DNA of 16,833 bases from Naegleria gruberi (lineage: Eukaryota): NCBI GenBank assembly GCA_000004985.1, contig GG738969.1. One strand, 5' to 3'. Both the position numbers and the translations under genes were made by a program. A model generated the notes under the pieces. It saw only the letters and a list, made by a program, of their open reading frames with translations, ran no database searches and was not told where the DNA came from. This document shows, piece after piece, positions 1 through 16,833 of the stretch (position 1 is its first letter; every line of letters starts with the position of its first letter).

Positions 1-535
1 ACCAATTATCAAATAGAAGAATCTTTCTATGTGCATCCAAGAGTGAGAACAAGTTGCTTGCTTCATCACTACTAGTGTTGCTGTCCTTGATGATATTATT
101 TACATTGTTACTGAATGATGAAGAGGAATTACATGTATTGCCACTATGAAAATTGTTTGATTCTTCTGTCTGAATCATGTGAGCATGCTCAACTTGCTGA
201 TGTTGCTGATACATGTTGTTCGACACAAAATGATTCCAATTCATGGCTGATGATGAAACTCCTCCAAATATATTAACACCATTACTATTATCTGTATAAT
301 TTGATGTATCCAAGTATTGTTGTCCATCTATTTTAACCTGCCTTAAAGATTCGATTACATTATTCAATAATTCAGTATTTGGTGTGAGAGGAGTGATTAA
401 ATTTTGATTGGGTGAAGCATATTGTTGAGGAGTGAGAGGTGAAGTTAAGGATGTTGAATTCCCTTCTCCTTGTTGGTAATTAGTAGAATTATTATTATTA
501 TGATCATCAAACATTGAGATGGTAATTCTTTGCAT
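1..535 (-). CDS. Partial CDS, N-terminal 178 codons of an N/Q/S-rich low-complexity protein. ATG is at 535-533 and the reading frame runs off the window at position 1
   Basis: Manual reverse-complement translation from ATG at 535 gives MQRITISMFDDHNNNNSTNYQQGEGNSTSLTSPLTPQQYASPNQNLITPLTPNTELLNNVIESLRQVKIDGQQYLDTSNYTDNSNGVNIFGGVSSSAMNWNHFVSNNMYQQHQQVEHAHMIQTEESNNFHSGNTCNSSSSFSNNVNNIIKDSNTSSDEASNLFSLLDAHRKILLFDNW... with no stop for 535 nt in AT-rich DNA. The upstream in-frame stop is TAA at 715-713, and there is no other ATG between it and 535. It is absent from the ORF track only because its stop lies beyond the window. Confidence 0.5.
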   Translation of the reverse strand, partial: MQRITISMFDDHNNNNSTNYQQGEGNSTSLTSPLTPQQYASPNQNLITPLTPNTELLNNVIESLRQVKIDGQQYLDTSNYTDNSNGVNIFGGVSSSAMNWNHFVSNNMYQQHQQVEHAHMIQTEESNNFHSGNTCNSSSSFSNNVNNIIKDSNTSSDEASNLFSLLDAHRKILLFDNW

Positions 536-1034
536 TTTCTTTGAAGGCTTTGAATAACCCAAATATGAAATTTCAAATAAATGGGTTGTTGCAGCTAGGA
601 ATGTGTTGAAGAAAGACAGGTTGCAAAATTGGTGTGTTTGTTGTTGTAAAGAGAGAAAGAAGGAAAAAAGCAAATATCCAGAAGATGTGTGTTTAATCTT
701 TTTTCTTCTTGGTTATTTTGGAGGAATCATAAGTAAGAGTTTGATTCTGAATTCGTCAAGAACAAATAAGTACATGTATTAATAACAAAACACAACGGTG
801 AATTTGGCGCGTTTGTTTTACATTCTTTCCTTATTAGAACCTTAAGATGACAGATTAGTGGATGGAAAGTTGAAAAAAGAGCATAAATTAACTTCCCAAT
901 TCCACACCAGAAAAGGTATATTTAACAGAAAAGTCTTTCTTTCTTTGTATTCCACAAAGTTGTTGGTGACTGTTCATCTATTTAAAAAAGTCGATTGGAA
1001 TAAGAATTTATTGACCTAGTAATTTGTGTTATAT
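536..1034 (-). promoter_or_regulatory. Intergenic region holding the promoter/5' flank of the 1-535 gene and the 3' UTR with poly(A) signal of the 1035-1859 gene
   Basis: No ORF here. AATAAA on the minus strand at 1012-1007 lies 23 nt past the TAA stop at 1037-1035. No confident TATA box was identified. Confidence 0.35.
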
Positions 1035-1859
1035 TTAGGCAGGTTTAGGATTGGATGAGGTAGCGGCACTAATTGAAGAGTTGTTGGTTGACTTGGATTG
1101 ATTTTCTTCATCTAGTTTCTTGTTTTCAGTTTCTTCTTTGAGTTTCTTCTCTTCGTTTTGCTTTCGTTCTTGTTCTTCCTTTTGTTTCTTCTCTTCTTCT
1201 TCTTTTTTTAATTGCTCCTCTTTGAGTTTCTTCTCTTCCTCAAGTTTCTTCTTTTCTTCCTCCTCTTTTTTCTTCTTCTCCTCTTCTTCCTTTTTCTTCT
1301 TTTCTTCTTCTTCTTTTTTCTTTTTCTCTTCCTCTTCCTTTTGCTTCTTTGCTTGCTCCTCTTTGAGTTTTCTCTCCTCTTCCATTTTCTTCTTCTTTTC
1401 CTCTGCTTCTTTGATTTTTCTTTCCATTTCCAACTTTTCTTGTCGTATCTTTTCCTGTTTTTTACGTTCCAATTCTCTGAGTTCTGCCTCCTTTTCTGCC
1501 TTCTTATCAATGTTTGTTGGATCGTGCAAGAACCATCCAGTAATTGCTGTTGACACTTCACAATTATGAACACTGAATGCATTGAAAATCATTGAAATAA
1601 CTGATTGTCCATTCCAATCTGGTTCAGTTCCCAATTCTAATGGTTTATCAGCACTGGTTCTGAAAATTGCACCATCAGGAATAGTTCCTTGTCCATTCTA
1701 TAATTCTCTTGATAAATATTTATAAATTGTTCCTAAACTTACCTCACAATCGTATGGTTTTGCCAAACTAATCCTCTTGTGAATTTTCACAAATTCTCCA
1801 TTCTTTAATTTAGAAGCATGCATCAATGAATGATCAAAATAAATGTCAGGTTGATTCAA
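1035..1859 (-). CDS. C-terminal portion of a protein with a globular domain followed by a ~150-aa E/K-rich (EEEEKKKK)n charged helix tract and a short S/N-rich tail. CDS = join(1743..1859, 1035..1697) on the minus strand; the 5' part is lost in the gap starting at 1860
   Basis: Exon A translates ...LNQPDIYFDHSLMHASKLKNGEFVKIHKRISLAKPYDCE. Exon B translates NGQGTIPDGAIFRTSADKPLELGTEPDWNGQSVISMIFNAFSVHNCEVSTAITGWFLHDPTNIDKK, then KKEEEE/EEEEKKKK repeats, ...NQSKSTNNSSISAATSSNPKPA and a stop. The ORF-track 'M' at 1634 is really TTG (Leu). Without splicing the frame hits TAG inside the 45-nt segment. The globular domain was not recognised as a known family. Confidence 0.7.
1120..1500. repeat. Coding low-complexity/minisatellite tract. 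The plus strand is almost pure pyrimidine (CT-rich), with an approximately 24-nt tandem periodicity encoding (EEEEKKKK)n
   Basis: Runs such as ttcttcttcttttttcttcttctcctcttcttcc are visible, and four consecutive EEEEKKKK units appear in the protein. ORFs in all other frames and the opposite strand (1120..1569 +, 1208..1582 -, 1212..1553 +) are by-products of this repeat. Confidence 0.8.
1698..1742 (-). other. Spliceosomal intron, 45 nt, phase 0, GT..AG
   Basis: Minus-strand sequence is gtaagtttaggaacaatttataaatatttatcaagagaattatag. It has a GTAAGT donor and a TAG acceptor. Removing it joins ...PYDCE to NGQGT... in frame, while retaining it gives an in-frame TAG. Confidence 0.6.
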
Positions 1860-4800
1860 NNNNNNNNNNNNNNNNNNNNNNNNNNNNNNNNNNNNNNNNN
1901 NNNNNNNNNNNNNNNNNNNNNNNNNNNNNNNNNNNNNNNNNNNNNNNNNNNNNNNNNNNNNNNNNNNNNNNNNNNNNNNNNNNNNNNNNNNNNNNNNNNN
2001 NNNNNNNNNNNNNNNNNNNNNNNNNNNNNNNNNNNNNNNNNNNNNNNNNNNNNNNNNNNNNNNNNNNNNNNNNNNNNNNNNNNNNNNNNNNNNNNNNNNN
2101 NNNNNNNNNNNNNNNNNNNNNNNNNNNNNNNNNNNNNNNNNNNNNNNNNNNNNNNNNNNNNNNNNNNNNNNNNNNNNNNNNNNNNNNNNNNNNNNNNNNN
2201 NNNNNNNNNNNNNNNNNNNNNNNNNNNNNNNNNNNNNNNNNNNNNNNNNNNNNNNNNNNNNNNNNNNNNNNNNNNNNNNNNNNNNNNNNNNNNNNNNNNN
2301 NNNNNNNNNNNNNNNNNNNNNNNNNNNNNNNNNNNNNNNNNNNNNNNNNNNNNNNNNNNNNNNNNNNNNNNNNNNNNNNNNNNNNNNNNNNNNNNNNNNN
2401 NNNNNNNNNNNNNNNNNNNNNNNNNNNNNNNNNNNNNNNNNNNNNNNNNNNNNNNNNNNNNNNNNNNNNNNNNNNNNNNNNNNNNNNNNNNNNNNNNNNN
2501 NNNNNNNNNNNNNNNNNNNNNNNNNNNNNNNNNNNNNNNNNNNNNNNNNNNNNNNNNNNNNNNNNNNNNNNNNNNNNNNNNNNNNNNNNNNNNNNNNNNN
2601 NNNNNNNNNNNNNNNNNNNNNNNNNNNNNNNNNNNNNNNNNNNNNNNNNNNNNNNNNNNNNNNNNNNNNNNNNNNNNNNNNNNNNNNNNNNNNNNNNNNN
2701 NNNNNNNNNNNNNNNNNNNNNNNNNNNNNNNNNNNNNNNNNNNNNNNNNNNNNNNNNNNNNNNNNNNNNNNNNNNNNNNNNNNNNNNNNNNNNNNNNNNN
2801 NNNNNNNNNNNNNNNNNNNNNNNNNNNNNNNNNNNNNNNNNNNNNNNNNNNNNNNNNNNNNNNNNNNNNNNNNNNNNNNNNNNNNNNNNNNNNNNNNNNN
2901 NNNNNNNNNNNNNNNNNNNNNNNNNNNNNNNNNNNNNNNNNNNNNNNNNNNNNNNNNNNNNNNNNNNNNNNNNNNNNNNNNNNNNNNNNNNNNNNNNNNN
3001 NNNNNNNNNNNNNNNNNNNNNNNNNNNNNNNNNNNNNNNNNNNNNNNNNNNNNNNNNNNNNNNNNNNNNNNNNNNNNNNNNNNNNNNNNNNNNNNNNNNN
3101 NNNNNNNNNNNNNNNNNNNNNNNNNNNNNNNNNNNNNNNNNNNNNNNNNNNNNNNNNNNNNNNNNNNNNNNNNNNNNNNNNNNNNNNNNNNNNNNNNNNN
3201 NNNNNNNNNNNNNNNNNNNNNNNNNNNNNNNNNNNNNNNNNNNNNNNNNNNNNNNNNNNNNNNNNNNNNNNNNNNNNNNNNNNNNNNNNNNNNNNNNNNN
3301 NNNNNNNNNNNNNNNNNNNNNNNNNNNNNNNNNNNNNNNNNNNNNNNNNNNNNNNNNNNNNNNNNNNNNNNNNNNNNNNNNNNNNNNNNNNNNNNNNNNN
3401 NNNNNNNNNNNNNNNNNNNNNNNNNNNNNNNNNNNNNNNNNNNNNNNNNNNNNNNNNNNNNNNNNNNNNNNNNNNNNNNNNNNNNNNNNNNNNNNNNNNN
3501 NNNNNNNNNNNNNNNNNNNNNNNNNNNNNNNNNNNNNNNNNNNNNNNNNNNNNNNNNNNNNNNNNNNNNNNNNNNNNNNNNNNNNNNNNNNNNNNNNNNN
3601 NNNNNNNNNNNNNNNNNNNNNNNNNNNNNNNNNNNNNNNNNNNNNNNNNNNNNNNNNNNNNNNNNNNNNNNNNNNNNNNNNNNNNNNNNNNNNNNNNNNN
3701 NNNNNNNNNNNNNNNNNNNNNNNNNNNNNNNNNNNNNNNNNNNNNNNNNNNNNNNNNNNNNNNNNNNNNNNNNNNNNNNNNNNNNNNNNNNNNNNNNNNN
3801 NNNNNNNNNNNNNNNNNNNNNNNNNNNNNNNNNNNNNNNNNNNNNNNNNNNNNNNNNNNNNNNNNNNNNNNNNNNNNNNNNNNNNNNNNNNNNNNNNNNN
3901 NNNNNNNNNNNNNNNNNNNNNNNNNNNNNNNNNNNNNNNNNNNNNNNNNNNNNNNNNNNNNNNNNNNNNNNNNNNNNNNNNNNNNNNNNNNNNNNNNNNN
4001 NNNNNNNNNNNNNNNNNNNNNNNNNNNNNNNNNNNNNNNNNNNNNNNNNNNNNNNNNNNNNNNNNNNNNNNNNNNNNNNNNNNNNNNNNNNNNNNNNNNN
4101 NNNNNNNNNNNNNNNNNNNNNNNNNNNNNNNNNNNNNNNNNNNNNNNNNNNNNNNNNNNNNNNNNNNNNNNNNNNNNNNNNNNNNNNNNNNNNNNNNNNN
4201 NNNNNNNNNNNNNNNNNNNNNNNNNNNNNNNNNNNNNNNNNNNNNNNNNNNNNNNNNNNNNNNNNNNNNNNNNNNNNNNNNNNNNNNNNNNNNNNNNNNN
4301 NNNNNNNNNNNNNNNNNNNNNNNNNNNNNNNNNNNNNNNNNNNNNNNNNNNNNNNNNNNNNNNNNNNNNNNNNNNNNNNNNNNNNNNNNNNNNNNNNNNN
4401 NNNNNNNNNNNNNNNNNNNNNNNNNNNNNNNNNNNNNNNNNNNNNNNNNNNNNNNNNNNNNNNNNNNNNNNNNNNNNNNNNNNNNNNNNNNNNNNNNNNN
4501 NNNNNNNNNNNNNNNNNNNNNNNNNNNNNNNNNNNNNNNNNNNNNNNNNNNNNNNNNNNNNNNNNNNNNNNNNNNNNNNNNNNNNNNNNNNNNNNNNNNN
4601 NNNNNNNNNNNNNNNNNNNNNNNNNNNNNNNNNNNNNNNNNNNNNNNNNNNNNNNNNNNNNNNNNNNNNNNNNNNNNNNNNNNNNNNNNNNNNNNNNNNN
4701 NNNNNNNNNNNNNNNNNNNNNNNNNNNNNNNNNNNNNNNNNNNNNNNNNNNNNNNNNNNNNNNNNNNNNNNNNNNNNNNNNNNNNNNNNNNNNNNNNNNN

Positions 4801-5958
4801 NNNNNNNNNNNNNNNNNNNNNNNNNNNNNNNNNNNNNNNNNNNNNNNNNNNNNNNNNNNNNNNNNNNNNNNNNNNNNNNNNNNNNNNNNNNNNNNNNNNN
4901 NNNNNNNNNNNNNNNNNNNNNNNNNNNNNNNNNNNNNNNNNNNNNNNNNNNNNNNNNNNNNNNNNNNNNNNNNNNNNNNNNNNNNNNNNNNNNNNNNNNN
5001 NNNNNNNNNNNNNNNNNNNNNNNNNNNNNNNNNNNNNNNNNNNNNNNNNNNNNNNNNNNNNNNNNNNNNNNNNNNNNNNNNNNNNNNNNNNNNNNNNNNN
5101 NNNNNNNNNNNNNNNNNNNNNNNNNNNNNNNNNNNNNNNNNNNNNNNNNNNNNNNNNNNNNNNNNNNNNNNNNNNNNNNNNNNNNNNNNNNNNNNNNNNN
5201 NNNNNNNNNNNNNNNNNNNNNNNNNNNNNNNNNNNNNNNNNNNNNNNNNNNNNNNNNNNNNNNNNNNNNNNNNNNNNNNNNNNNNNNNNNNNNNNNNNNN
5301 NNNNNNNNNNNNNNNNNNNNNNNNNNNNNNNNNNNNNNNNNNNNNNNNNNNNNNNNNNNNNNNNNNNNNNNNNNNNNNNNNNNNNNNNNNNNNNNNNNNN
5401 NNNNNNNNNNNNNNNNNNNNNNNNNNNNNNNNNNNNNNNNNNNNNNNNNNNNNNNNNNNNNNNNNNNNNNNNNNNNNNNNNNNNNNNNNNNNNNNNNNNN
5501 NNNNNNNNNNNNNNNNNNNNNNNNNNNNNNNNNNNNNNNNNNNNNNNNNNNNNNNNNNNNNNNNNNNNNNNNNNNNNNNNNNNNNNNNNNNNNNNNNNNN
5601 NNNNNNNNNNNNNNNNNNNNNNNNNNNNNNNNNNNNNNNNNNNNNNNNNNNNNNNNNNNNNNNNNNNNNNNNNNNNNNNNNNNNNNNNNNNNNNNNNNNN
5701 NNNNNNNNNNNNNNNNNNNNNNNNNNNNNNNNNNNNNNNNNNNNNNNNNNNNNNNNNNNNNNNNNNNNNNNNNNNNNNNNNNNNNNNNNNNNNNNNNNNN
5801 NNNNNNNNNNNNNNNNNNNNNNNNNNNNNNNNNNNNNNNNNNNNNNNNNNNNNNNNNNNNNNNNNNNNNNNNNNNNNNNNNNNNNNNNNNNNNNNNNNNN
5901 NNNNNNNNNNNNNNNNNNNNNNNNNNNNNNNNNNNNNNNNNNNNNNNNNNNNNNNNNN
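1860..5958. other. Assembly gap (4099 N)
   Basis: Uninterrupted run of n. It removes the 5' part of the E/K-rich gene and whatever lies upstream of it. Confidence 1.
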
Positions 5959-6992: not shown

Positions 6993-7970
6993 TTATTTGT
7001 AAACAATCACCTTCTTATCATTGTTACAAACATAAAGTTCTCCAGTATATTGATCCAAACACATTCCATAAGAAAACATTCCAGATTTGAAAGTCTTAAT
7101 TAATGATCGATTCTCTTGCTTGAAAGCACATATTTGTGACTTTCTAATATTAACAATCAGAATATTCTTCTCAATTGGATCGAAAAGAAGACCACCACTA
7201 TCAAAACCTATTATTCCTGTCGAGGGTCTTGATTTATCACTAAAATCAAAACTTGAACTTTTTTGAAATTCTTGATTTTCATTTCTTTCATAAATATGGA
7301 TATTGTCATTACAAGCATCTCCAACAAGGAAGGAATTTGAATTGAGAAAAGCAATTCCATAAGGTGTTGAAGCTAAAATCTCTTGTACTTTCATTCCAGT
7401 AATTGAATCCAATACGTGAATTCTTCCTATTGACATATCAGAGACTAAAATTTGATTGTCATGATAATCTCTGTACAATATTTCAACAGTTGAAGGATGA
7501 TTAAGATTTTCTACCTTCCAAATACAGAGATTTTCTATTGGCTCATTATTTGAAAGTAGCAATTGTTCAAGATCAAATTTAAACAAGACTGAAGGAGACA
7601 TTGAAGTGACATATAAATATTCCTTTTGATTAATCTTTTCAATATTTAAATAATTAATTCTATAGTTTTGAAATTGAATTGATTTTTTAAATTTTCTTGA
7701 ATGCAAATCAAACACTTGAATTCTGTCTCTGTCAGTTATTATGACACAGTGAAATTGATGTGAAATTTTTACATCCAATGGATGCACAAAGTTGTCTTTC
7801 TCCTTGATTTTCCCATTGCCGAATGTGTGGACAGGAGTAAAATTCAAGGAGAAACCAACCTTGTTTTTTGTTTTCGGGTTGAATTGCTCTTGAAGTTTAG
7901 AATAGAGAATAGTTTGCATTTCAGCAAGATTCTCAACAAGAATACATTGTGTGGGTTCAGTTTCTGCCAT
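6993..7970 (-). CDS. NHL-repeat six-bladed beta-propeller protein, 325 aa, single exon, with no accessory domains
   Basis: Real ATG at 7970-7968 with a TAA immediately upstream in frame. NHL signature motifs are DRDRIQVFDL, SIGRIHVLDS, GIAFLNSNSFLVGDACNDNIHIY and GELYVCNNDKKVIVYK, in roughly six 40-50-aa repeats. Stop is TAA at 6995-6993, with AATAAA (minus) at 6997-6992 overlapping the stop. Confidence 0.75.
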   Translation of the reverse strand: MAETEPTQCILVENLAEMQTILYSKLQEQFNPKTKNKVGFSLNFTPVHTFGNGKIKEKDNFVHPLDVKISHQFHCVIITDRDRIQVFDLHSRKFKKSIQFQNYRINYLNIEKINQKEYLYVTSMSPSVLFKFDLEQLLLSNNEPIENLCIWKVENLNHPSTVEILYRDYHDNQILVSDMSIGRIHVLDSITGMKVQEILASTPYGIAFLNSNSFLVGDACNDNIHIYERNENQEFQKSSSFDFSDKSRPSTGIIGFDSGGLLFDPIEKNILIVNIRKSQICAFKQENRSLIKTFKSGMFSYGMCLDQYTGELYVCNNDKKVIVYK

Positions 7971-8067: not shown

Positions 8068-8877
8068 CTAATCATTAATTGCATAAAATTTTGGCATCTC
8101 TTCGATAATGGTCAGGCAACTGTTGTAGAGATAGGCCATTCTTTCCTCTCCATCAAAATCATGGAACACTAGAGTATCTGTACTGTATTTGTTTCGAATA
8201 CCTTTGCAGTATTGGTCAAATGGAACACCTTCATGTTGAATATGTTCAAGAATATACTTAAATCCATCAAGCAGGGTAACACTTGTGATACCTGGATAAG
8301 CCATTCTACTCATAAGAACTACTTTGAAATAGTTTACAATTCGTTCAATACATGAAACATCCAAAATTGTTGGTGTAAAATAGTTCGTCATTATTTCTAT
8401 TGATTCTGTAAGATCGTCCACTTGATGATAGTCCAAAAAATGGCACACAATATAATGATTGATTAATTCTTTGAATGATTGCATGCTTATTTTCAATCTT
8501 GTCGTTAGAATATTTAAATCTAACTTTTCAGGATAGATTTCAAAGAATGGCTTGAGGGAGGTGTTGATCGAACAGAAGGAGTAGCTTTTAAACACTGAGT
8601 AAATAAAATTGTAATTTCCTTCTGAAGTTTCAATTATTTCATAGGGGTCAAAATTTTCAATTTTGGGAAGCAAATCTGGAATCTTGGAGGAATAATTGAA
8701 TTTGTGAAATATTATTTTGTAATCTTCCTTTCCAATCAATCCTCTTTTTTCTAATAACTCTATTATGACTTGTTCCTCTTTCTGTAAAAAAATATTGCGC
8801 TCTGCAATATTCGAATAGTGAATAGATTTTTCTTCGATAATTTCCAAAAGCTGACAAAGACTGTCCACAAGTATTGT
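8068..8877 (-). CDS. C-terminal 270-aa fragment of an uncharacterised protein. The 5' part is lost in the gap. It may or may not be the same gene as the 12121-13228 fragment
   Basis: Open frame from the gap edge to TAG at 8070-8068: ...TILVDSLCQLLEIIEEKSIHYSNIAERNIFLQKEEQVIIELLEKRGLIGKEDYKIIFHKFN...DGFKYILEHIQHEGVPFDQYCKGIRNKYSTDTLVFHDFDGEERMAYLYNSCLTIIEEMPKFYAIND*. That is 270 codons without a stop in AT-rich DNA. No family was recognised. Confidence 0.55.
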   Translation of the reverse strand, partial: TILVDSLCQLLEIIEEKSIHYSNIAERNIFLQKEEQVIIELLEKRGLIGKEDYKIIFHKFNYSSKIPDLLPKIENFDPYEIIETSEGNYNFIYSVFKSYSFCSINTSLKPFFEIYPEKLDLNILTTRLKISMQSFKELINHYIVCHFLDYHQVDDLTESIEIMTNYFTPTILDVSCIERIVNYFKVVLMSRMAYPGITSVTLLDGFKYILEHIQHEGVPFDQYCKGIRNKYSTDTLVFHDFDGEERMAYLYNSCLTIIEEMPKFYAIND

Positions 8878-11800
8878 NNNNNNNNNNNNNNNNNNNNNNN
8901 NNNNNNNNNNNNNNNNNNNNNNNNNNNNNNNNNNNNNNNNNNNNNNNNNNNNNNNNNNNNNNNNNNNNNNNNNNNNNNNNNNNNNNNNNNNNNNNNNNNN
9001 NNNNNNNNNNNNNNNNNNNNNNNNNNNNNNNNNNNNNNNNNNNNNNNNNNNNNNNNNNNNNNNNNNNNNNNNNNNNNNNNNNNNNNNNNNNNNNNNNNNN
9101 NNNNNNNNNNNNNNNNNNNNNNNNNNNNNNNNNNNNNNNNNNNNNNNNNNNNNNNNNNNNNNNNNNNNNNNNNNNNNNNNNNNNNNNNNNNNNNNNNNNN
9201 NNNNNNNNNNNNNNNNNNNNNNNNNNNNNNNNNNNNNNNNNNNNNNNNNNNNNNNNNNNNNNNNNNNNNNNNNNNNNNNNNNNNNNNNNNNNNNNNNNNN
9301 NNNNNNNNNNNNNNNNNNNNNNNNNNNNNNNNNNNNNNNNNNNNNNNNNNNNNNNNNNNNNNNNNNNNNNNNNNNNNNNNNNNNNNNNNNNNNNNNNNNN
9401 NNNNNNNNNNNNNNNNNNNNNNNNNNNNNNNNNNNNNNNNNNNNNNNNNNNNNNNNNNNNNNNNNNNNNNNNNNNNNNNNNNNNNNNNNNNNNNNNNNNN
9501 NNNNNNNNNNNNNNNNNNNNNNNNNNNNNNNNNNNNNNNNNNNNNNNNNNNNNNNNNNNNNNNNNNNNNNNNNNNNNNNNNNNNNNNNNNNNNNNNNNNN
9601 NNNNNNNNNNNNNNNNNNNNNNNNNNNNNNNNNNNNNNNNNNNNNNNNNNNNNNNNNNNNNNNNNNNNNNNNNNNNNNNNNNNNNNNNNNNNNNNNNNNN
9701 NNNNNNNNNNNNNNNNNNNNNNNNNNNNNNNNNNNNNNNNNNNNNNNNNNNNNNNNNNNNNNNNNNNNNNNNNNNNNNNNNNNNNNNNNNNNNNNNNNNN
9801 NNNNNNNNNNNNNNNNNNNNNNNNNNNNNNNNNNNNNNNNNNNNNNNNNNNNNNNNNNNNNNNNNNNNNNNNNNNNNNNNNNNNNNNNNNNNNNNNNNNN
9901 NNNNNNNNNNNNNNNNNNNNNNNNNNNNNNNNNNNNNNNNNNNNNNNNNNNNNNNNNNNNNNNNNNNNNNNNNNNNNNNNNNNNNNNNNNNNNNNNNNNN
10001 NNNNNNNNNNNNNNNNNNNNNNNNNNNNNNNNNNNNNNNNNNNNNNNNNNNNNNNNNNNNNNNNNNNNNNNNNNNNNNNNNNNNNNNNNNNNNNNNNNNN
10101 NNNNNNNNNNNNNNNNNNNNNNNNNNNNNNNNNNNNNNNNNNNNNNNNNNNNNNNNNNNNNNNNNNNNNNNNNNNNNNNNNNNNNNNNNNNNNNNNNNNN
10201 NNNNNNNNNNNNNNNNNNNNNNNNNNNNNNNNNNNNNNNNNNNNNNNNNNNNNNNNNNNNNNNNNNNNNNNNNNNNNNNNNNNNNNNNNNNNNNNNNNNN
10301 NNNNNNNNNNNNNNNNNNNNNNNNNNNNNNNNNNNNNNNNNNNNNNNNNNNNNNNNNNNNNNNNNNNNNNNNNNNNNNNNNNNNNNNNNNNNNNNNNNNN
10401 NNNNNNNNNNNNNNNNNNNNNNNNNNNNNNNNNNNNNNNNNNNNNNNNNNNNNNNNNNNNNNNNNNNNNNNNNNNNNNNNNNNNNNNNNNNNNNNNNNNN
10501 NNNNNNNNNNNNNNNNNNNNNNNNNNNNNNNNNNNNNNNNNNNNNNNNNNNNNNNNNNNNNNNNNNNNNNNNNNNNNNNNNNNNNNNNNNNNNNNNNNNN
10601 NNNNNNNNNNNNNNNNNNNNNNNNNNNNNNNNNNNNNNNNNNNNNNNNNNNNNNNNNNNNNNNNNNNNNNNNNNNNNNNNNNNNNNNNNNNNNNNNNNNN
10701 NNNNNNNNNNNNNNNNNNNNNNNNNNNNNNNNNNNNNNNNNNNNNNNNNNNNNNNNNNNNNNNNNNNNNNNNNNNNNNNNNNNNNNNNNNNNNNNNNNNN
10801 NNNNNNNNNNNNNNNNNNNNNNNNNNNNNNNNNNNNNNNNNNNNNNNNNNNNNNNNNNNNNNNNNNNNNNNNNNNNNNNNNNNNNNNNNNNNNNNNNNNN
10901 NNNNNNNNNNNNNNNNNNNNNNNNNNNNNNNNNNNNNNNNNNNNNNNNNNNNNNNNNNNNNNNNNNNNNNNNNNNNNNNNNNNNNNNNNNNNNNNNNNNN
11001 NNNNNNNNNNNNNNNNNNNNNNNNNNNNNNNNNNNNNNNNNNNNNNNNNNNNNNNNNNNNNNNNNNNNNNNNNNNNNNNNNNNNNNNNNNNNNNNNNNNN
11101 NNNNNNNNNNNNNNNNNNNNNNNNNNNNNNNNNNNNNNNNNNNNNNNNNNNNNNNNNNNNNNNNNNNNNNNNNNNNNNNNNNNNNNNNNNNNNNNNNNNN
11201 NNNNNNNNNNNNNNNNNNNNNNNNNNNNNNNNNNNNNNNNNNNNNNNNNNNNNNNNNNNNNNNNNNNNNNNNNNNNNNNNNNNNNNNNNNNNNNNNNNNN
11301 NNNNNNNNNNNNNNNNNNNNNNNNNNNNNNNNNNNNNNNNNNNNNNNNNNNNNNNNNNNNNNNNNNNNNNNNNNNNNNNNNNNNNNNNNNNNNNNNNNNN
11401 NNNNNNNNNNNNNNNNNNNNNNNNNNNNNNNNNNNNNNNNNNNNNNNNNNNNNNNNNNNNNNNNNNNNNNNNNNNNNNNNNNNNNNNNNNNNNNNNNNNN
11501 NNNNNNNNNNNNNNNNNNNNNNNNNNNNNNNNNNNNNNNNNNNNNNNNNNNNNNNNNNNNNNNNNNNNNNNNNNNNNNNNNNNNNNNNNNNNNNNNNNNN
11601 NNNNNNNNNNNNNNNNNNNNNNNNNNNNNNNNNNNNNNNNNNNNNNNNNNNNNNNNNNNNNNNNNNNNNNNNNNNNNNNNNNNNNNNNNNNNNNNNNNNN
11701 NNNNNNNNNNNNNNNNNNNNNNNNNNNNNNNNNNNNNNNNNNNNNNNNNNNNNNNNNNNNNNNNNNNNNNNNNNNNNNNNNNNNNNNNNNNNNNNNNNNN

Positions 11801-12120
11801 NNNNNNNNNNNNNNNNNNNNNNNNNNNNNNNNNNNNNNNNNNNNNNNNNNNNNNNNNNNNNNNNNNNNNNNNNNNNNNNNNNNNNNNNNNNNNNNNNNNN
11901 NNNNNNNNNNNNNNNNNNNNNNNNNNNNNNNNNNNNNNNNNNNNNNNNNNNNNNNNNNNNNNNNNNNNNNNNNNNNNNNNNNNNNNNNNNNNNNNNNNNN
12001 NNNNNNNNNNNNNNNNNNNNNNNNNNNNNNNNNNNNNNNNNNNNNNNNNNNNNNNNNNNNNNNNNNNNNNNNNNNNNNNNNNNNNNNNNNNNNNNNNNNN
12101 NNNNNNNNNNNNNNNNNNNN
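8878..12120. other. Assembly gap (3243 N)
   Basis: Uninterrupted run of n. The long ORF-track entries spanning it (8068..12129, 8657..13258, 8763..12185, 8818..12150, 8874..12188) are artefacts of translating N as X. Confidence 1.
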
Positions 12121-13228
12121 GATATGCAATCAAAATTACCCAATTCATAACAGTTCCTAAAATCGTTAATCTTACTTTGGCACAATAACTATCGAGTGCG
12201 TACATTTCCTGAGTCTCAAAGTAGACACATACAATTGGTGTGTAAGGAGTTAACAATCTTCTCTTAATGGCTGGTAACTGAAATGATTTAGTAGCAAATA
12301 AAATTACATAATATATAATGACAAGTACGCTAACTGGAATGATCCAATAATCAGATGGAACAAAGCTCATCTGGGTACAATATTCATTTGTACAGTAGGT
12401 ACAAGTAGAAGGGAGTAGATTTGAAAGAAAAACATTCAGAGTAATGTTAGAAACTGGAATATGGTTGTCAATTCGAAGTTTGGTAATGTAAGATTCCATT
12501 TCAATTTGGGAAAGAGTTTCGACCTTGAAACCATTCACCCAAGACAGAAATTCAATGTCAGTCTCTCTAATCTTTCCAAAATCGTTATAGATATTTAACC
12601 ACTGTGTTTCGTATTGGCCAATTGCATGAAATTTTGTGTCATAATTGTGTTCAGAGCAAACAGCAGAGGAGTTTAACCATTCGAAACTTGTTGAAACATT
12701 TACGTTATCACTTTGAATTACAGAGAGAGGAAATAGTGGGAGAGGAATAAAATCACTGGACTCTAAAAATTCAGACTTGGATCTTTTCTTACTCAAAACT
12801 CTACTACCTTTCAGTTTCGTATAAAATTCATAAGGTTCACTAATAATAATATCATACTCTTCAAAGATGTTGATAAATTTGCATGAACCAAGTTTGATGC
12901 TTTGAAAATCTTCCACTACACTTCTAGAAATGTTTTTAAATTGTAAAATATCTGACCACAGTTGTTTGATAGTGGAATTTCTTGTTCCCACTATTGCAAC
13001 TTTGAGAGTGGCAGCAGATGGTGAGATGGAAGAGAACATGTTGAAAATGTCTTGTTTTTGCACATTTACTGCATGTTCTTTCCAGACGAAAGCAGTCAGA
13101 AAGGTTTCCACTCGGAGAACCTTTGCAGTTGAGAGCTTGTCGAAAGATACAGAGTTTTTGGCCAGTAACATTTCGCAAGATTGTGCCAACATCAAGAGGA
13201 GGAGTATCACATGCCAGCTCGATTTCAT
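12121..13228 (-). CDS. N-terminal fragment (369 codons) of a receptor-like membrane glycoprotein. It has a signal peptide, an ectodomain of about 325 aa with multiple N-glycosylation sequons and a Cys-rich juxtamembrane motif, a 23-aa TM helix, and a basic cytoplasmic start. It continues into the gap
   Basis: The true ATG is at 13228-13226; the ORF-track start at 13258 is TTG. N-terminus MKSSWHVILLLLMLAQSCEM has a hydrophobic core followed by small residues, as a signal peptide would. Sequons are NST, NIS, NVS, NSS, NIT. The juxtamembrane motif is CTYCTNEYCTQ. The TM helix is YWIIPVSVLVIIYYVILFATKSF, followed by QLPAIKRRLL (positive-inside). A second hydrophobic run LTILGTVMNWVILIAY lies just before the gap, so this could be multi-pass. 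TATA-like TATAGAAA (minus) is about 65 nt upstream of the ATG. Confidence 0.6.
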
Positions 13229-13334
13229 TTGTTGTCGATTTTTTTGTTTGAGGATCAAATTCCCGATCGTTTCTAAATGGTGACATGAATTTCTATATGA
13301 AATTTAGCCTAAATAACTCAAATCTCAACACACA

Positions 13335-13959: not shown

Positions 13960-14253
13960 ATGATCACACAACCAAAACATTCCATCACTTCTTCATTTTC
14001 GAAAATACAAGAAAATAATCTATTCTCTGACGATTCACTCTTTGAAATTTTATCTTTTCACGATGATTTTAAATTTATTGTACAGAGGTGTGCATTGGTT
14101 TCCAAACAGTGGTTTCATGTCATTAAAAATTCATGTAAACACCTCTCGATAACACGTAGTAGTGATTGGGAAATGGTTGGTCAATTGCCGTTTTTGGAAA
14201 ATGTTGCAAATCTAAGAGTGATAGAGAATGAAGGTGGATTTAATTGTGAGATA
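13960..14253 (+). CDS. F-box protein, N-terminal 98 codons. The F-box is followed by the start of probable leucine-rich repeats, and it continues into the gap
   Basis: A-rich context aaaaaaaATGatc. MITQPKHSITSSFSKIQENNLFSDDSLFEILSFHDDFKFIVQRCALVSKQWFHVIKNSCKHLSI... fits the F-box consensus (L.DE.L..IFS.L....L.....VCK.W). LENVANLRVIENEGGFNCEI is LRR-like. Confidence 0.65.
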
Positions 14254-15910
14254 NNNNNNNNNNNNNNNNNNNNNNNNNNNNNNNNNNNNNNNNNNNNNNN
14301 NNNNNNNNNNNNNNNNNNNNNNNNNNNNNNNNNNNNNNNNNNNNNNNNNNNNNNNNNNNNNNNNNNNNNNNNNNNNNNNNNNNNNNNNNNNNNNNNNNNN
14401 NNNNNNNNNNNNNNNNNNNNNNNNNNNNNNNNNNNNNNNNNNNNNNNNNNNNNNNNNNNNNNNNNNNNNNNNNNNNNNNNNNNNNNNNNNNNNNNNNNNN
14501 NNNNNNNNNNNNNNNNNNNNNNNNNNNNNNNNNNNNNNNNNNNNNNNNNNNNNNNNNNNNNNNNNNNNNNNNNNNNNNNNNNNNNNNNNNNNNNNNNNNN
14601 NNNNNNNNNNNNNNNNNNNNNNNNNNNNNNNNNNNNNNNNNNNNNNNNNNNNNNNNNNNNNNNNNNNNNNNNNNNNNNNNNNNNNNNNNNNNNNNNNNNN
14701 NNNNNNNNNNNNNNNNNNNNNNNNNNNNNNNNNNNNNNNNNNNNNNNNNNNNNNNNNNNNNNNNNNNNNNNNNNNNNNNNNNNNNNNNNNNNNNNNNNNN
14801 NNNNNNNNNNNNNNNNNNNNNNNNNNNNNNNNNNNNNNNNNNNNNNNNNNNNNNNNNNNNNNNNNNNNNNNNNNNNNNNNNNNNNNNNNNNNNNNNNNNN
14901 NNNNNNNNNNNNNNNNNNNNNNNNNNNNNNNNNNNNNNNNNNNNNNNNNNNNNNNNNNNNNNNNNNNNNNNNNNNNNNNNNNNNNNNNNNNNNNNNNNNN
15001 NNNNNNNNNNNNNNNNNNNNNNNNNNNNNNNNNNNNNNNNNNNNNNNNNNNNNNNNNNNNNNNNNNNNNNNNNNNNNNNNNNNNNNNNNNNNNNNNNNNN
15101 NNNNNNNNNNNNNNNNNNNNNNNNNNNNNNNNNNNNNNNNNNNNNNNNNNNNNNNNNNNNNNNNNNNNNNNNNNNNNNNNNNNNNNNNNNNNNNNNNNNN
15201 NNNNNNNNNNNNNNNNNNNNNNNNNNNNNNNNNNNNNNNNNNNNNNNNNNNNNNNNNNNNNNNNNNNNNNNNNNNNNNNNNNNNNNNNNNNNNNNNNNNN
15301 NNNNNNNNNNNNNNNNNNNNNNNNNNNNNNNNNNNNNNNNNNNNNNNNNNNNNNNNNNNNNNNNNNNNNNNNNNNNNNNNNNNNNNNNNNNNNNNNNNNN
15401 NNNNNNNNNNNNNNNNNNNNNNNNNNNNNNNNNNNNNNNNNNNNNNNNNNNNNNNNNNNNNNNNNNNNNNNNNNNNNNNNNNNNNNNNNNNNNNNNNNNN
15501 NNNNNNNNNNNNNNNNNNNNNNNNNNNNNNNNNNNNNNNNNNNNNNNNNNNNNNNNNNNNNNNNNNNNNNNNNNNNNNNNNNNNNNNNNNNNNNNNNNNN
15601 NNNNNNNNNNNNNNNNNNNNNNNNNNNNNNNNNNNNNNNNNNNNNNNNNNNNNNNNNNNNNNNNNNNNNNNNNNNNNNNNNNNNNNNNNNNNNNNNNNNN
15701 NNNNNNNNNNNNNNNNNNNNNNNNNNNNNNNNNNNNNNNNNNNNNNNNNNNNNNNNNNNNNNNNNNNNNNNNNNNNNNNNNNNNNNNNNNNNNNNNNNNN
15801 NNNNNNNNNNNNNNNNNNNNNNNNNNNNNNNNNNNNNNNNNNNNNNNNNNNNNNNNNNNNNNNNNNNNNNNNNNNNNNNNNNNNNNNNNNNNNNNNNNNN
15901 NNNNNNNNNN
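14254..15910. other. Assembly gap (1657 N)
   Basis: Run of n. ORF-track entries 13960..15918, 14212..16014, 14228..15925 and 14240..15940 are inflated by it. Confidence 1.
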
Positions 15911-16098: not shown

Positions 16099-16833
16099 TT
16101 AGCTTTTGTTTGATTCTCCATTCTGAGAATAAATGGTTCCAGTAGTAGTATATAAATAATATCCACATTTTGTATTATTATTTGTTTCGTTCACATTAAT
16201 ACTTTTAGGTGCAAATCCAATCATTAAACTATTACAATTAGATATGAGTTTAACTTTGAAATGATTTGATTTTGTTCCTAAAACATTTGAATTCAAATCA
16301 GAAGTGTTTGTTTTCTTTAGTCTAGTTGGTGTTTCCAAGACAAGATTTGCAGAACAATACTGTGGATCAAATTCTACTGTGTTTGAGCTATTTGTGTCAA
16401 TCTCTAAAATAATTCCATACTTGGATTTGAGTAAACTTCTTCCTTTAGGTGGAAGAATTTCATAAATTGGTGTAATTTGATAATAGACAACTTCTTCCAC
16501 AAACCCCACAAGGTCATTCCCATTCAAATTTTCAACTTGTTCCTTGATGTCAATTCCTCTCAAATAATTTAAAATCAGTTGAAACTGCTCAAAAGGTCTA
16601 TCAATAAAGTATGCATTGTCATCTTCCTCAACAGTTGGACTAAAGTGATCATTGAAATATCCAGTAAAGAATGTATCCTTCACACTCTTCAATGTTTGTA
16701 AGCTCGTGGAGAATATCTTCCCACCAACATTTAATTTTACCACTTGATTCTTTCCCAATTTACTTTCAATTGTTGTTGATTTTGCGAGCTTATTCTCAAT
16801 CTCTAATATTCTCTCCTCACGCTCAGCAAGATC
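16099..16833 (-). CDS. KCTD-family protein with a T1-type BTB/POZ domain. It is partial, and the N-terminus/start codon lies beyond the window end
   Basis: The frame is open to position 16833; the ORF-track 'M' at 16758 is TTG. Upstream in frame is DLAEREERILEIENKLAKSTTIESKLGKNQ, which looks like a coiled coil. Then VVKLNVGGKIFSTSLQTLKSVKDTFFTGYF...EDDNAYFIDRPFEQFQLILNYLRG matches the KCTD BTB consensus (V.LNVGG..F.T...TL......YFIDRDG..F..IL.YLR.G). Stop is TAA at 16101-16099, with AATAAA (minus) at 16089-16084. Confidence 0.75.
   Translation of the reverse strand, partial: DLAEREERILEIENKLAKSTTIESKLGKNQVVKLNVGGKIFSTSLQTLKSVKDTFFTGYFNDHFSPTVEEDDNAYFIDRPFEQFQLILNYLRGIDIKEQVENLNGNDLVGFVEEVVYYQITPIYEILPPKGRSLLKSKYGIILEIDTNSSNTVEFDPQYCSANLVLETPTRLKKTNTSDLNSNVLGTKSNHFKVKLISNCNSLMIGFAPKSINVNETNNNTKCGYYLYTTTGTIYSQNGESNKS

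What the first reader, a model, noticed from the sequence alone, without database searches (positions are those of the whole stretch)
1035..1634. Canonical ER/K single-alpha-helix (SAH) tract about 150 aa long attached to an unrecognised globular domain
The protein runs from ...NIDKKAEKEAELRELERKKQEK... through four perfect EEEEKKKK units to ...KKLKEETENKK. Alternating blocks of four E and four K/R is the textbook pattern for a stable isolated single alpha helix, as seen in myosin-10 and caldesmon-type ER/K linkers and in designed E4K4 peptides. A ~150-residue SAH would be a rigid rod of roughly 20 nm. The preceding domain (IYFDHSLMHASKLKNGEFVKIHKRISLAKPYDCENGQGTIPDGAIFRTSADKPLELGTEPDWNGQSVISMIFNAFSVHNCEVSTAITGWFLHDP) is not one I can assign. 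The N-terminus is missing in the gap, so the architecture is only partly visible.
Basis: partly seen in the sequence, partly recalled or inferred. Interest (0 to 1): 0.5.

Follow-up and report, generated by a model that had tools for sequence, protein, structure and literature searches.

The report
Charged helical tail on Naegleria membrane protein
The tract is a real, translated, roughly 140-residue glutamate/lysine tail that most likely forms a single long helix on a membrane-anchored, sugar-transferase-like protein of a Naegleria-type amoeba; yeast Mnn4 already shows the same design, so it is an ordinary example of a known motif.

Summary
On the minus strand a two-exon gene (partial exon 1 at 1859-1743, 45-nt intron, exon 2 at 1697-1035) ends in a 139-aa E/K/R tract. 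The tract is 77% charged and has no Pro or Gly. It contains three perfect EEEEKKKK units plus one EEEEKKKL, followed by a 20-aa S/N/T tail.

Surrogate tests favour a single alpha-helix over a coiled coil:
- The i+3/i+4 opposite-charge score is z=8.7 against shuffles.
- There is no hydrophobic heptad seam.
- AlphaFold2 gives one 143-residue helix at pLDDT about 90.

A metagenome contig that matches at 97-99.7% of aligned bases (about 94% when indels are counted) carries the orthologue with the complete 5' end. It shows an N-terminal membrane anchor, a domain of about 270 aa and the same tail with two E4K4 units fewer. That in-frame indel is the only indel in the coding sequence.

No second domain follows the helix, so it is a terminal projection, not a linker. 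The closest analogue is yeast Mnn4, a Golgi type II protein with a C-terminal (K4E4)n helix of about 20 nm. This is a new member of a known kind and of low-to-moderate interest.

The parts
1743..1859 (-). 3' part of exon 1 (39 codons, LNQPDIYFD...KPYDCE). It starts at the conserved 'NQPDxYFD' motif of the globular domain. The rest of exon 1 lies in the N-gap.
   Evidence: Translation. It is 116/117 nt identical to L002 exon 1. The motif is invariant in the family alignment.
1860..5958 (.). Assembly gap of 4099 N. It hides the first 177 codons or so (about 531 nt) of exon 1, including the start codon and the membrane anchor.
   Evidence: In the orthologue L002, exon 1 is 648 nt (L002 540-1187), of which 117 nt are visible in the window.
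1698..1742 (-). Intron, 45 nt, GTAAGT...TAG, phase 0.
   Evidence: Read directly. The orthologous intron in L002 is 46 nt, with 2 substitutions and 1 indel. A paralogue in L001 has an intron at the same protein position, after DCE.
1035..1697 (-). Exon 2 (last exon): 220 codons plus the stop codon at 1037-1035.
   Evidence: Against L002 it is 612/615 aligned nt identical, with one 48-nt in-frame indel.
1515..1697 (-). C-terminal part of the globular domain (NGQGTIPDG...HNCEVSTAITGWFLHDPT). Tentatively the C-terminal half of a GT-A-like fold.
1098..1514 (-). ER/K tract, 139 aa (NIDKKAEKEAELRELERKK...KKLDEENQ). Predicted single alpha-helix of about 21 nm. The coding strand is 87% purine.
   Evidence: AlphaFold2 gives a continuous helix over residues 60-202 of the exon-2 product, pLDDT 87-97 over most of it.
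1242..1337 (-). Core of four 24-nt units encoding EEEEKKKK x3 plus EEEEKKKL. Unit number differs between close strains.
   Evidence: TRF finds period 24/48 arrays. L002 has two units (16 codons) fewer.
1038..1097 (-). C-terminal S/N/T-rich tail, 20 aa (SKSTNNSSISAATSSNPKPA). No further domain follows.
   Evidence: pLDDT is about 51 and the model shows no secondary structure there.

Best explanation
The tract is the translated C-terminal extension of a two-exon gene from a Naegleria-type amoeba.

Architecture, read from the near-identical orthologue for the part hidden in the gap:
- a 5-residue N-terminus;
- one 22-residue hydrophobic membrane anchor;
- a lineage-specific globular domain of about 270 aa that is probably a divergent GT-A (nucleotide-sugar transferase-like) fold;
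- a 139-aa E/K/R tract;
- a 20-aa S/N/T tail.

The tract most likely folds as a monomeric, charge-stabilised single alpha-helix. Blocks of E and K/R spaced so that i to i+3 and i+4 partners have opposite charge form dynamic salt bridges along one helix. There is no hydrophobic seam for pairing with a second helix.

It arose and still changes length by slippage of 24-nt GAR/AAR codon units, and paralogues lack it. Because nothing folded follows it, it works as a semi-flexible projection of about 20 nm from the membrane-anchored domain, not as an inter-domain lever.

By analogy with yeast Mnn4 I infer a type II topology, with the domain and helix in the Golgi or secretory lumen. There the tail would space the enzyme or recruit partners.

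Shown: gene structure, translation constraint, sequence pattern, predicted helix, membrane anchor in the orthologue, restriction of the family to Naegleria, and length polymorphism.

Inferred: monomeric state, GT-A identity, topology and function.
For: Gene model and coding constraint.

Single-helix pattern:
- The tract is 77% charged with no Pro or Gly, and its score is z=8.7 against shuffles.
- The charge period is 7.6 residues and there is no 3.5- or 7-residue hydrophobic periodicity.
- Hydrophobic occupancy of a/d positions is 25% in the best register, against 0.85-0.87 in GCN4 and tropomyosin controls.
- The salt-bridge score is 0.80 per residue, against 0.06-0.11 in those coiled coils and 1.37-1.38 in Mnn4 and a designed single helix.
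- AlphaFold2 gives a single 143-residue helix, pLDDT 87-97 over most of it.

N-terminus and anchor: the L002 orthologue encodes 420 aa, and its Kyte-Doolittle 19-mer maximum is 3.19 at residues 9-27. A paralogue in L001 has an in-frame upstream anchor.

Family restricted to Naegleria, tail absent from paralogues.

GT-A lead:
- Two members hit Pfam GT17 in the same profile region at E=0.007-0.012.
- Foldseek hits are weak but fall almost entirely in the same superfamily.

Repeat slippage: TRF finds period 24/48, and there is a 16-codon indel between strains.

Precedent:
- Mnn4 carries (K4E4)n (PMC10602382).
- That tract is used as a 20-nm single helix (PMC4226728).
- Mnn4 is a Golgi type II protein (PMC7530903).
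- K/E repeats are needed for function in Candida Mnn4 and are absent from its paralogues (PMC5681524).
Against: - No dedicated single-helix or coiled-coil predictor could be run. My score is a simplified surrogate.
- AlphaFold2 on a monomer cannot distinguish a lone helix from a helix that pairs.
- The first 59 residues of the tract score lower and carry roughly one hydrophobic residue per heptad, so a short stretch could self-associate.
- The GT-A assignment rests on a low-confidence model (pLDDT 46.8, pTM 0.49) and sub-threshold sequence hits. The canonical DxD position reads NQPD.
- The charge difference across the anchor is about zero in both sequences where it is visible, so topology is not determined.
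- Copy-number variation between close strains, and absence from paralogues, are equally expected for a tolerated low-complexity expansion with no specific function.
- No transcript or protein evidence was available.
Confidence: 0.6

Rival explanations
1. The tract is a functionally neutral low-complexity expansion. Replication slippage in a GAA/AAG-rich polypurine run added a charged tail that is tolerated because it is soluble. It may be helical, but it has no specific role.
For: - The unit number differs by two between strains that are 98-99% identical.
- All three paralogues seen lack any such tail.
- No folded module lies beyond it.
- There are 24/48-nt tandem arrays.
- Charged helices of this kind are common, in about 4% of proteins (PMC5347031).
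Against: - There are no nonsynonymous changes and no frameshift in 123 shared tract codons, against 7 indel events in 524 nt of flank. The divergence is small, so the test is weak.
- The non-repetitive two thirds of the tract also keep the charge pattern.
- In the Mnn4 precedent the repeats matter for function (PMC5681524).
Confidence: 0.25
2. The tract, or at least its N-terminal third, forms a coiled-coil dimer or oligomer that multimerises the membrane-anchored domain.
For: - The first 59 residues have hydrophobic residues at about 7-residue spacing (I22, M29, A36, M43). Their a/d occupancy is 0.50-0.62 when Ala is counted.
- Many Golgi enzymes oligomerise. This point is general knowledge and was not tested here.
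Against: - Only one position per heptad is hydrophobic. Overall a/d occupancy is 0.26, against 0.85-0.87 in real coiled coils.
- There is no 3.5-residue hydrophobic periodicity.
- The E4K4 core has no hydrophobic residues at all.
- Such sequences are commonly misidentified as coiled coils (PMC5347031).
Confidence: 0.08
3. The tract is an intrinsically disordered polyampholyte, not a stable helix.
For: Very high charge and low hydrophobicity are the classic predictors of disorder. The S/N/T tail is predicted unstructured.
Against: - Blocked E4K4-type patterning is documented to be helical, and charge/hydropathy heuristics fail on such regions (PMC10602382).
- The tract has no Pro or Gly.
- AlphaFold2 gives a helix at pLDDT 87-97 from a single sequence.
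Confidence: 0.07

Closest known systems
Saccharomyces cerevisiae Mnn4p (and Candida albicans Mnn4): Golgi type II membrane protein of the mannosylphosphate pathway with a C-terminal (KKKKEEEE)n tract
   Same: - Both have an N-terminal membrane anchor, a glycosylation-related catalytic-type domain, and a long E4K4/K4E4 tract at the C-terminal end of about 20 nm.
- In both cases the paralogues of the same family lack the repeats.
- The Mnn4 tract has been used experimentally as a 20-nm single alpha-helix (PMC10602382, PMC4226728, PMC7530903, PMC5681524).
   Different: - There is no homology. Mnn4 carries a LicD (nucleotidyltransferase-fold) domain, whereas this protein has no LicD match and looks GT-A-like.
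- Mnn4's repeat is more regular, scoring 1.37 against 0.80 per residue.
- Topology and Golgi location are not shown here.
- The resemblance is convergent architecture, not membership.
ER/K (charged) single alpha-helix domains of myosin VI/X, caldesmon, INCENP and MAP7, and designed AEEEXXX/E4K4 peptides
   Same: The composition is the same, as is the i+3/i+4 opposite-charge pattern. Both lack a hydrophobic seam and helix breakers. The length falls within the reported 40-200 residue range (PMC5347031, PMC5812594).
   Different: - Those domains usually bridge two functional modules or bind microtubules or nucleic acids in the cytosol or nucleus. This one is terminal and is attached to a membrane-anchored, probably lumenal, domain.
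- It is K-rich and R-poor (47 K, 6 R).
GT-A fold glycosyltransferases (CAZy GT2/GT17-like; type II Golgi enzymes)
   Same: - The orthologue has an N-terminal signal anchor.
- The low-confidence model shows alternating strand and helix elements.
- By eye the conserved blocks resemble GT2 motifs. This is my reading from memory and was not tested.
   Different: - No significant sequence match to any curated family was found.
- The DxD position reads NQPD.
- The C-terminal half, which is the part in the window, is modelled with pLDDT below 50.

Membership tests
ER/K charged single alpha-helix (SAH/CSAH) | At least 40 consecutive residues dominated by E, K and R, with opposite charges at i+3/i+4 | tested here: met
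   139 aa, 77% charged. There are 80 i+4 and 59 i+3 opposite-charge pairs, against 5 and 23 like-charge pairs. z=8.7 against shuffles. The score is 0.80 per residue, against 0.06-0.11 in coiled-coil controls.
ER/K charged single alpha-helix (SAH/CSAH) | No hydrophobic a/d seam | tested here: met
   Best global register has 25% occupancy. There is no 3.5- or 7-residue hydrophobic periodicity. The N-terminal 59 aa are borderline, with occupancy 0.50 when Ala is counted.
ER/K charged single alpha-helix (SAH/CSAH) | Uninterrupted helix (no Pro/Gly; predicted continuous helix) | tested here: met
   0 Pro and 0 Gly. AlphaFold2 gives a helix over residues 60-202 of the exon-2 product at pLDDT 87-97.
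ER/K charged single alpha-helix (SAH/CSAH) | Monomeric, highly helical in solution, with non-cooperative melting | not testable with these tools
   Needs CD, AUC/SEC-MALS and SAXS on the expressed tract.
ER/K charged single alpha-helix (SAH/CSAH) | Score above threshold in Waggawagga, SCAN4CSAH or FT_CHARGE | not tested
   These programs are not available here. Only a simplified surrogate with positive and negative controls was run.
Coiled coil | Heptad repeat with hydrophobic residues at both a and d | tested here: not met
   Mean a/d occupancy is 0.26 (maximum 0.62 in one 28-residue window), against 0.85-0.87 in GCN4 and tropomyosin.
GT-A fold glycosyltransferase | Rossmann-like alpha/beta/alpha nucleotide-sugar binding fold | tested here: inconclusive
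GT-A fold glycosyltransferase | Significant sequence match to a curated GT family | tested here: not met
   Pfam GT17 scores only 15-16 bits against a cut-off of 26 bits, in 2 of 4 members. Nothing relevant was found in the PDB sequence search or in NCBIfam.
GT-A fold glycosyltransferase | DxD metal-binding motif after the fourth strand | tested here: inconclusive
   An invariant NQPD(I/V)YFD follows the predicted strand at P0004 residues 111-115. It is not a canonical DxD. No structural alignment was available to fix the register.
GT-A fold glycosyltransferase | N-terminal signal anchor (type II topology) | tested here: inconclusive
   A hydrophobic 22-mer is present in L002, and an in-frame one in L001. 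Orientation is undetermined because the flanking charge difference is about zero. The window copy is hidden in the gap.
Mnn4 / LicD family | LicD domain | tested here: not met
   No LicD hit in Pfam for any family member. The resemblance is architectural only.

The most novel reading that the evidence does not exclude
Fungi (Mnn4) and a heterolobosean amoeba have independently added a C-terminal E4K4 helix of about 20 nm to membrane-anchored enzymes of the glycosylation machinery. If both tails are lumenal, this would point to a general and so far unstudied role for charged single helices inside the Golgi lumen. Examples would be a spacer or ruler of cisternal dimensions, or a partner-recruiting arm.
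Probability: 0.1. Interest if true: 0.55.

Novelty: new member of a known kind. Interest (0 to 1): 0.25.

Why it matters
The main value is annotation. The analysis rescues a gene that an assembly gap left unannotated. It defines a small Naegleria-specific family of membrane-anchored, probably GT-A-like proteins. It also adds a natural E4K4-type helix whose length varies between strains.

The parallel with yeast Mnn4 is a modest point of interest. A charged helical tail on a secretory-pathway enzyme has now been seen in two unrelated lineages. This could motivate a test of what such tails do in the Golgi lumen. The motif itself is well known and common.

Tried and rejected
- Pfam, PDB-sequence and NCBIfam searches with the window fragment and with the family gave nothing significant. 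The DUF5832 hit (E=0.0037) lies across the junction with the charged tract, and I treat it as a compositional artefact.
- The word-indexed search with the fragment found nothing. An exhaustive phmmer search found only two Naegleria-type relatives (an N. gruberi protein and a sequence from an SRA run) plus one spurious repeat protein, P0003.
- Two profile searches added only P0006 and P0007.
- Two JGI metagenome scans, one by protein pattern and one by exact DNA, found nothing.
- Exact look-ups of window ORFs, meant to name the source organism and to find an ungapped copy, all failed. The species is therefore inferred only from its homologues.
The afdb50 fold library was unavailable.
- The four overlapping ORFs at 1120-1582 on both strands are by-products of the polypurine/polypyrimidine composition, in which stop codons are scarce. 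They were rejected as genes.
- I considered LRAT/NlpC and PPPDE papain-like folds because of the 'HNCE' motif. I dropped them because every fold hit is GT-A and the motif is not conserved in P0007.

Full report
**What is in the sequence.** The window is AT-rich (32% GC), eukaryotic, and has three runs of N at 1860-5958, 8878-12120 and 14254-15910.

The finding lies on the minus strand. Translation gives ...LNQPDIYFDHSLMHASKLKNGEFVKIHKRISLAKPYDCE, then 45 nt beginning GTAAGT and ending TAG, then NGQGTIPDG...GWFLHDPTNIDKKAEKE... through to a stop codon at 1037-1035.

The gene model is therefore:
- exon 1, 1859-1743, truncated by the gap;
- intron, 1742-1698, phase 0;
- exon 2, 1697-1035.

**The tract itself.** It is 139 aa long (window 1514-1098).
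- Composition is 52 E, 47 K, 6 R and 2 D, with 10% LIVMF and no Pro or Gly.
- The core is three perfect EEEEKKKK units plus one EEEEKKKL (1337-1242), not four perfect units.
- A 20-aa S/N/T-rich tail follows, then the stop codon.

**Is it more than chance, and is it translated?**
- The excess of opposite over like charges at i+3/i+4 is 111, against 1.4 +/- 12.6 in 5000 shuffles of the same residues. That is z=8.7.
- The coding strand is 87% purine, so every frame is open there. The overlapping ORFs are compositional by-products, and an open frame alone proves nothing.
- Among the four 24-nt units, six third-codon positions vary but only one first and one second position do. Both of those lie in the single K-to-L codon.
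- A 3.1-kb metagenome contig (L002, ENA ERZ929261) matches window 4-1859 at about 94% when gaps are counted and carries the orthologue.
- In the shared coding sequence there are 0.5-0.9% substitutions, no frameshift and one in-frame 48-nt indel. The intergenic flank has 2% substitutions and seven indel events. The intron has two substitutions and one indel in 46 columns.
- A codon-wise comparison gives 5 synonymous and 2 non-synonymous differences in 243 codons, with none non-synonymous in the tract.
- A paralogue on another contig (L001) has its intron at the same protein position.

I conclude that the tract is coding.

**Helix, coiled coil or disorder?** No dedicated predictor was available, so I used surrogates with controls.
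- The salt-bridge score per residue is 0.80 for the tract. It is 1.37 for the Mnn4 K4E4 tract and 1.38 for an (AEEEKRK)14 design.
- Hydrophobic occupancy of a/d positions is 0.26 on average (25% in the best global register), against 0.85-0.87 in the coiled coils.
- The charge pattern has a period of 7.6 residues. Hydrophobic residues show no 3.5- or 7-residue periodicity.
- AlphaFold2 from the single sequence gives one continuous helix over residues 60-202 of the exon-2 product, with pLDDT 87-97 over most of it. The S/N/T tail is unstructured.
- Published work states that (EEEEKKKK)n polymers are helical (PMC10602382).

At 0.15 nm per residue the tract would be about 21 nm, which is longer than one persistence length. 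It would therefore be semi-flexible, not rigid. The first 59 residues are weaker, at 0.42 per residue with roughly one hydrophobic residue per heptad. Self-association of that stretch cannot be excluded.

**The rest of the protein.** The fragment has no Pfam or PDB-sequence match.
- An exhaustive phmmer search of 1.84 billion representatives found only two real relatives. One is a Naegleria gruberi predicted protein, XP_002668690 / XP_002676445 (UniProt D2VHL6), at E=7.5e-28 and 49% identity. The other comes from an SRA run.
- Profile searches added a second N. gruberi paralogue (P0007, about 30% identity) and P0006.
- P0006 is exon 1 of the orthologue on L002.

Splicing L002 gives a 420-aa protein:
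- MFSNR;
- a 22-residue hydrophobic segment, GLAITFSVVVLVVVIISFLFIL (Kyte-Doolittle 19-mer maximum 3.19);
- a domain of about 270 aa;
- the ER/K tract;
- the tail.

L001 also has an in-frame upstream hydrophobic anchor. D2VHL6, the L001 paralogue and P0007 all end shortly after the domain, with no charged tail. The tail is therefore a recent addition in one paralogue. L002 has two E4K4 units fewer than the window, and TRF sees 24/48-nt arrays, so the tract changes length by unit slippage.

**What the domain may be.**
- Two family members independently give sub-threshold Pfam hits to glycosyltransferase family 17 in the same profile region (E=0.007 and 0.012; 15-16 bits against a 26-bit cut-off).
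- AlphaFold2 on D2VHL6 with a six-row alignment is of low confidence (pLDDT 46.8, pTM 0.49) but shows alternating strands and helices.
- Foldseek finds nothing significant, and its weak hits fall almost entirely in the same superfamily.
- By eye, the conserved blocks (IVSQLIVG...LLTSIQMNLLNP, EYHLLQIDNSLDSD, ...YLNQPDIYFD) resemble the N-terminal motifs of GT2-type enzymes, with NQPD where DxD is expected. This is my own reading from memory, not a test.

I rate the GT-A assignment at about 0.6. The window holds only the C-terminal, least confidently modelled part of the domain.

**Mechanism and comparison.** No folded module follows the helix, so it cannot act as an inter-domain lever as in myosins.

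The closest known case is yeast Mnn4:
- It is a Golgi-resident type II membrane protein (PMC7530903).
- It has a C-terminal run of KKKKEEEE units (PMC10602382).
- That run has been cloned and used as a 20-nm single helix (PMC4226728).
- In Candida albicans the K/E repeats are reported as required for function, and the seven paralogues lack them (PMC5681524).

The present protein shares that architecture but not homology. It has no LicD domain. By analogy I infer a type II topology, with the domain and tail in the secretory lumen and the tail acting as a projecting spacer or interaction arm. The charges flanking the anchor are balanced, so orientation is not established. A neutral low-complexity expansion remains a serious rival, at about 0.25.

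**Verdict.** The single-helix reading is supported as far as sequence-based tests can go, but the 'rigid rod linker' picture is not. This is a new member of a well-known motif class, on a small uncharacterised Naegleria-specific family, with a documented fungal analogue. Interest is 0.25.

**What led nowhere.**
- The metagenome scans found nothing.
- Exact look-ups to name the source organism or find an ungapped copy failed.
- The NCBIfam and PDB profile searches found nothing relevant.
- The afdb50 fold library was unavailable.

Noticed in passing
window 1120-1582, both strands: Four long overlapping ORFs lie on both strands: K/R-rich on the minus strand, S/F- and L/F-rich on the plus strand. 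They exist only because the 87% purine/pyrimidine asymmetry of the tract removes stop codons. They are not genes. A polypurine run of about 420 nt like this could also form triplex DNA.
   Followed up: partly
window 4-535, minus strand: The downstream neighbour on the same strand starts at about 535 (MQRITISMFDDHNNNN...) and runs off the window. It is N/Q/S-rich. It is conserved in L002 at 97% of aligned bases with a single 3-nt indel, while the 500-nt spacer between the two genes has seven indels.
   Followed up: partly
window 16099-16758, minus strand: A 219-aa ORF has a clear BTB/POZ (BTB_2, K-channel tetramerisation type) domain at residues 7-97, E=4e-17. The listed start is a TTG, so the true start or an upstream exon is unknown.
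   Followed up: partly
window 6993-7970, minus strand: An intron-less 325-aa ORF with an ATG start has no Pfam match. The only hit is a faint WD40-like one, far below threshold. By eye it looks like a beta-propeller repeat protein. The exact sequence is not in the protein collection.
   Followed up: partly
window 8068-8877 and 12121-13258, minus strand: Two long open frames flank the second N-gap. The upstream one (379 aa) starts with a signal-peptide-like segment and contains hydrophobic segments. The downstream one (269 aa) runs to a stop codon. They may be one gene split by the gap. Neither has a Pfam match.
   Followed up: partly
window 13960-14253, plus strand: An ORF start (MITQPKHS...LFSDDSLFEILSFHDDFKFIVQRCALVSKQWFHVIKN...) looks like an F-box by eye but gave no Pfam hit. 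It runs into the third gap.
   Followed up: partly
L001 2418-2506: The gene call for the paralogue on the SRA contig (P0002) starts at an internal ATG. An in-frame upstream ATG adds MTTNHQTNRRGGIFIISSVIIIAVILYFIT, which is a membrane anchor. The call also reads into the intron and misses exon 2. The N. gruberi models XP_002668690 and XP_002676445 likewise appear N-terminally truncated.
   Followed up: partly
L002 1-3101: A human-unrelated ENA metagenome assembly (ERZ929261, PRJEB11402) contains a contig from a strain very close to the window's organism. A Naegleria-like amoeba was therefore present in that sample.
   Followed up: no
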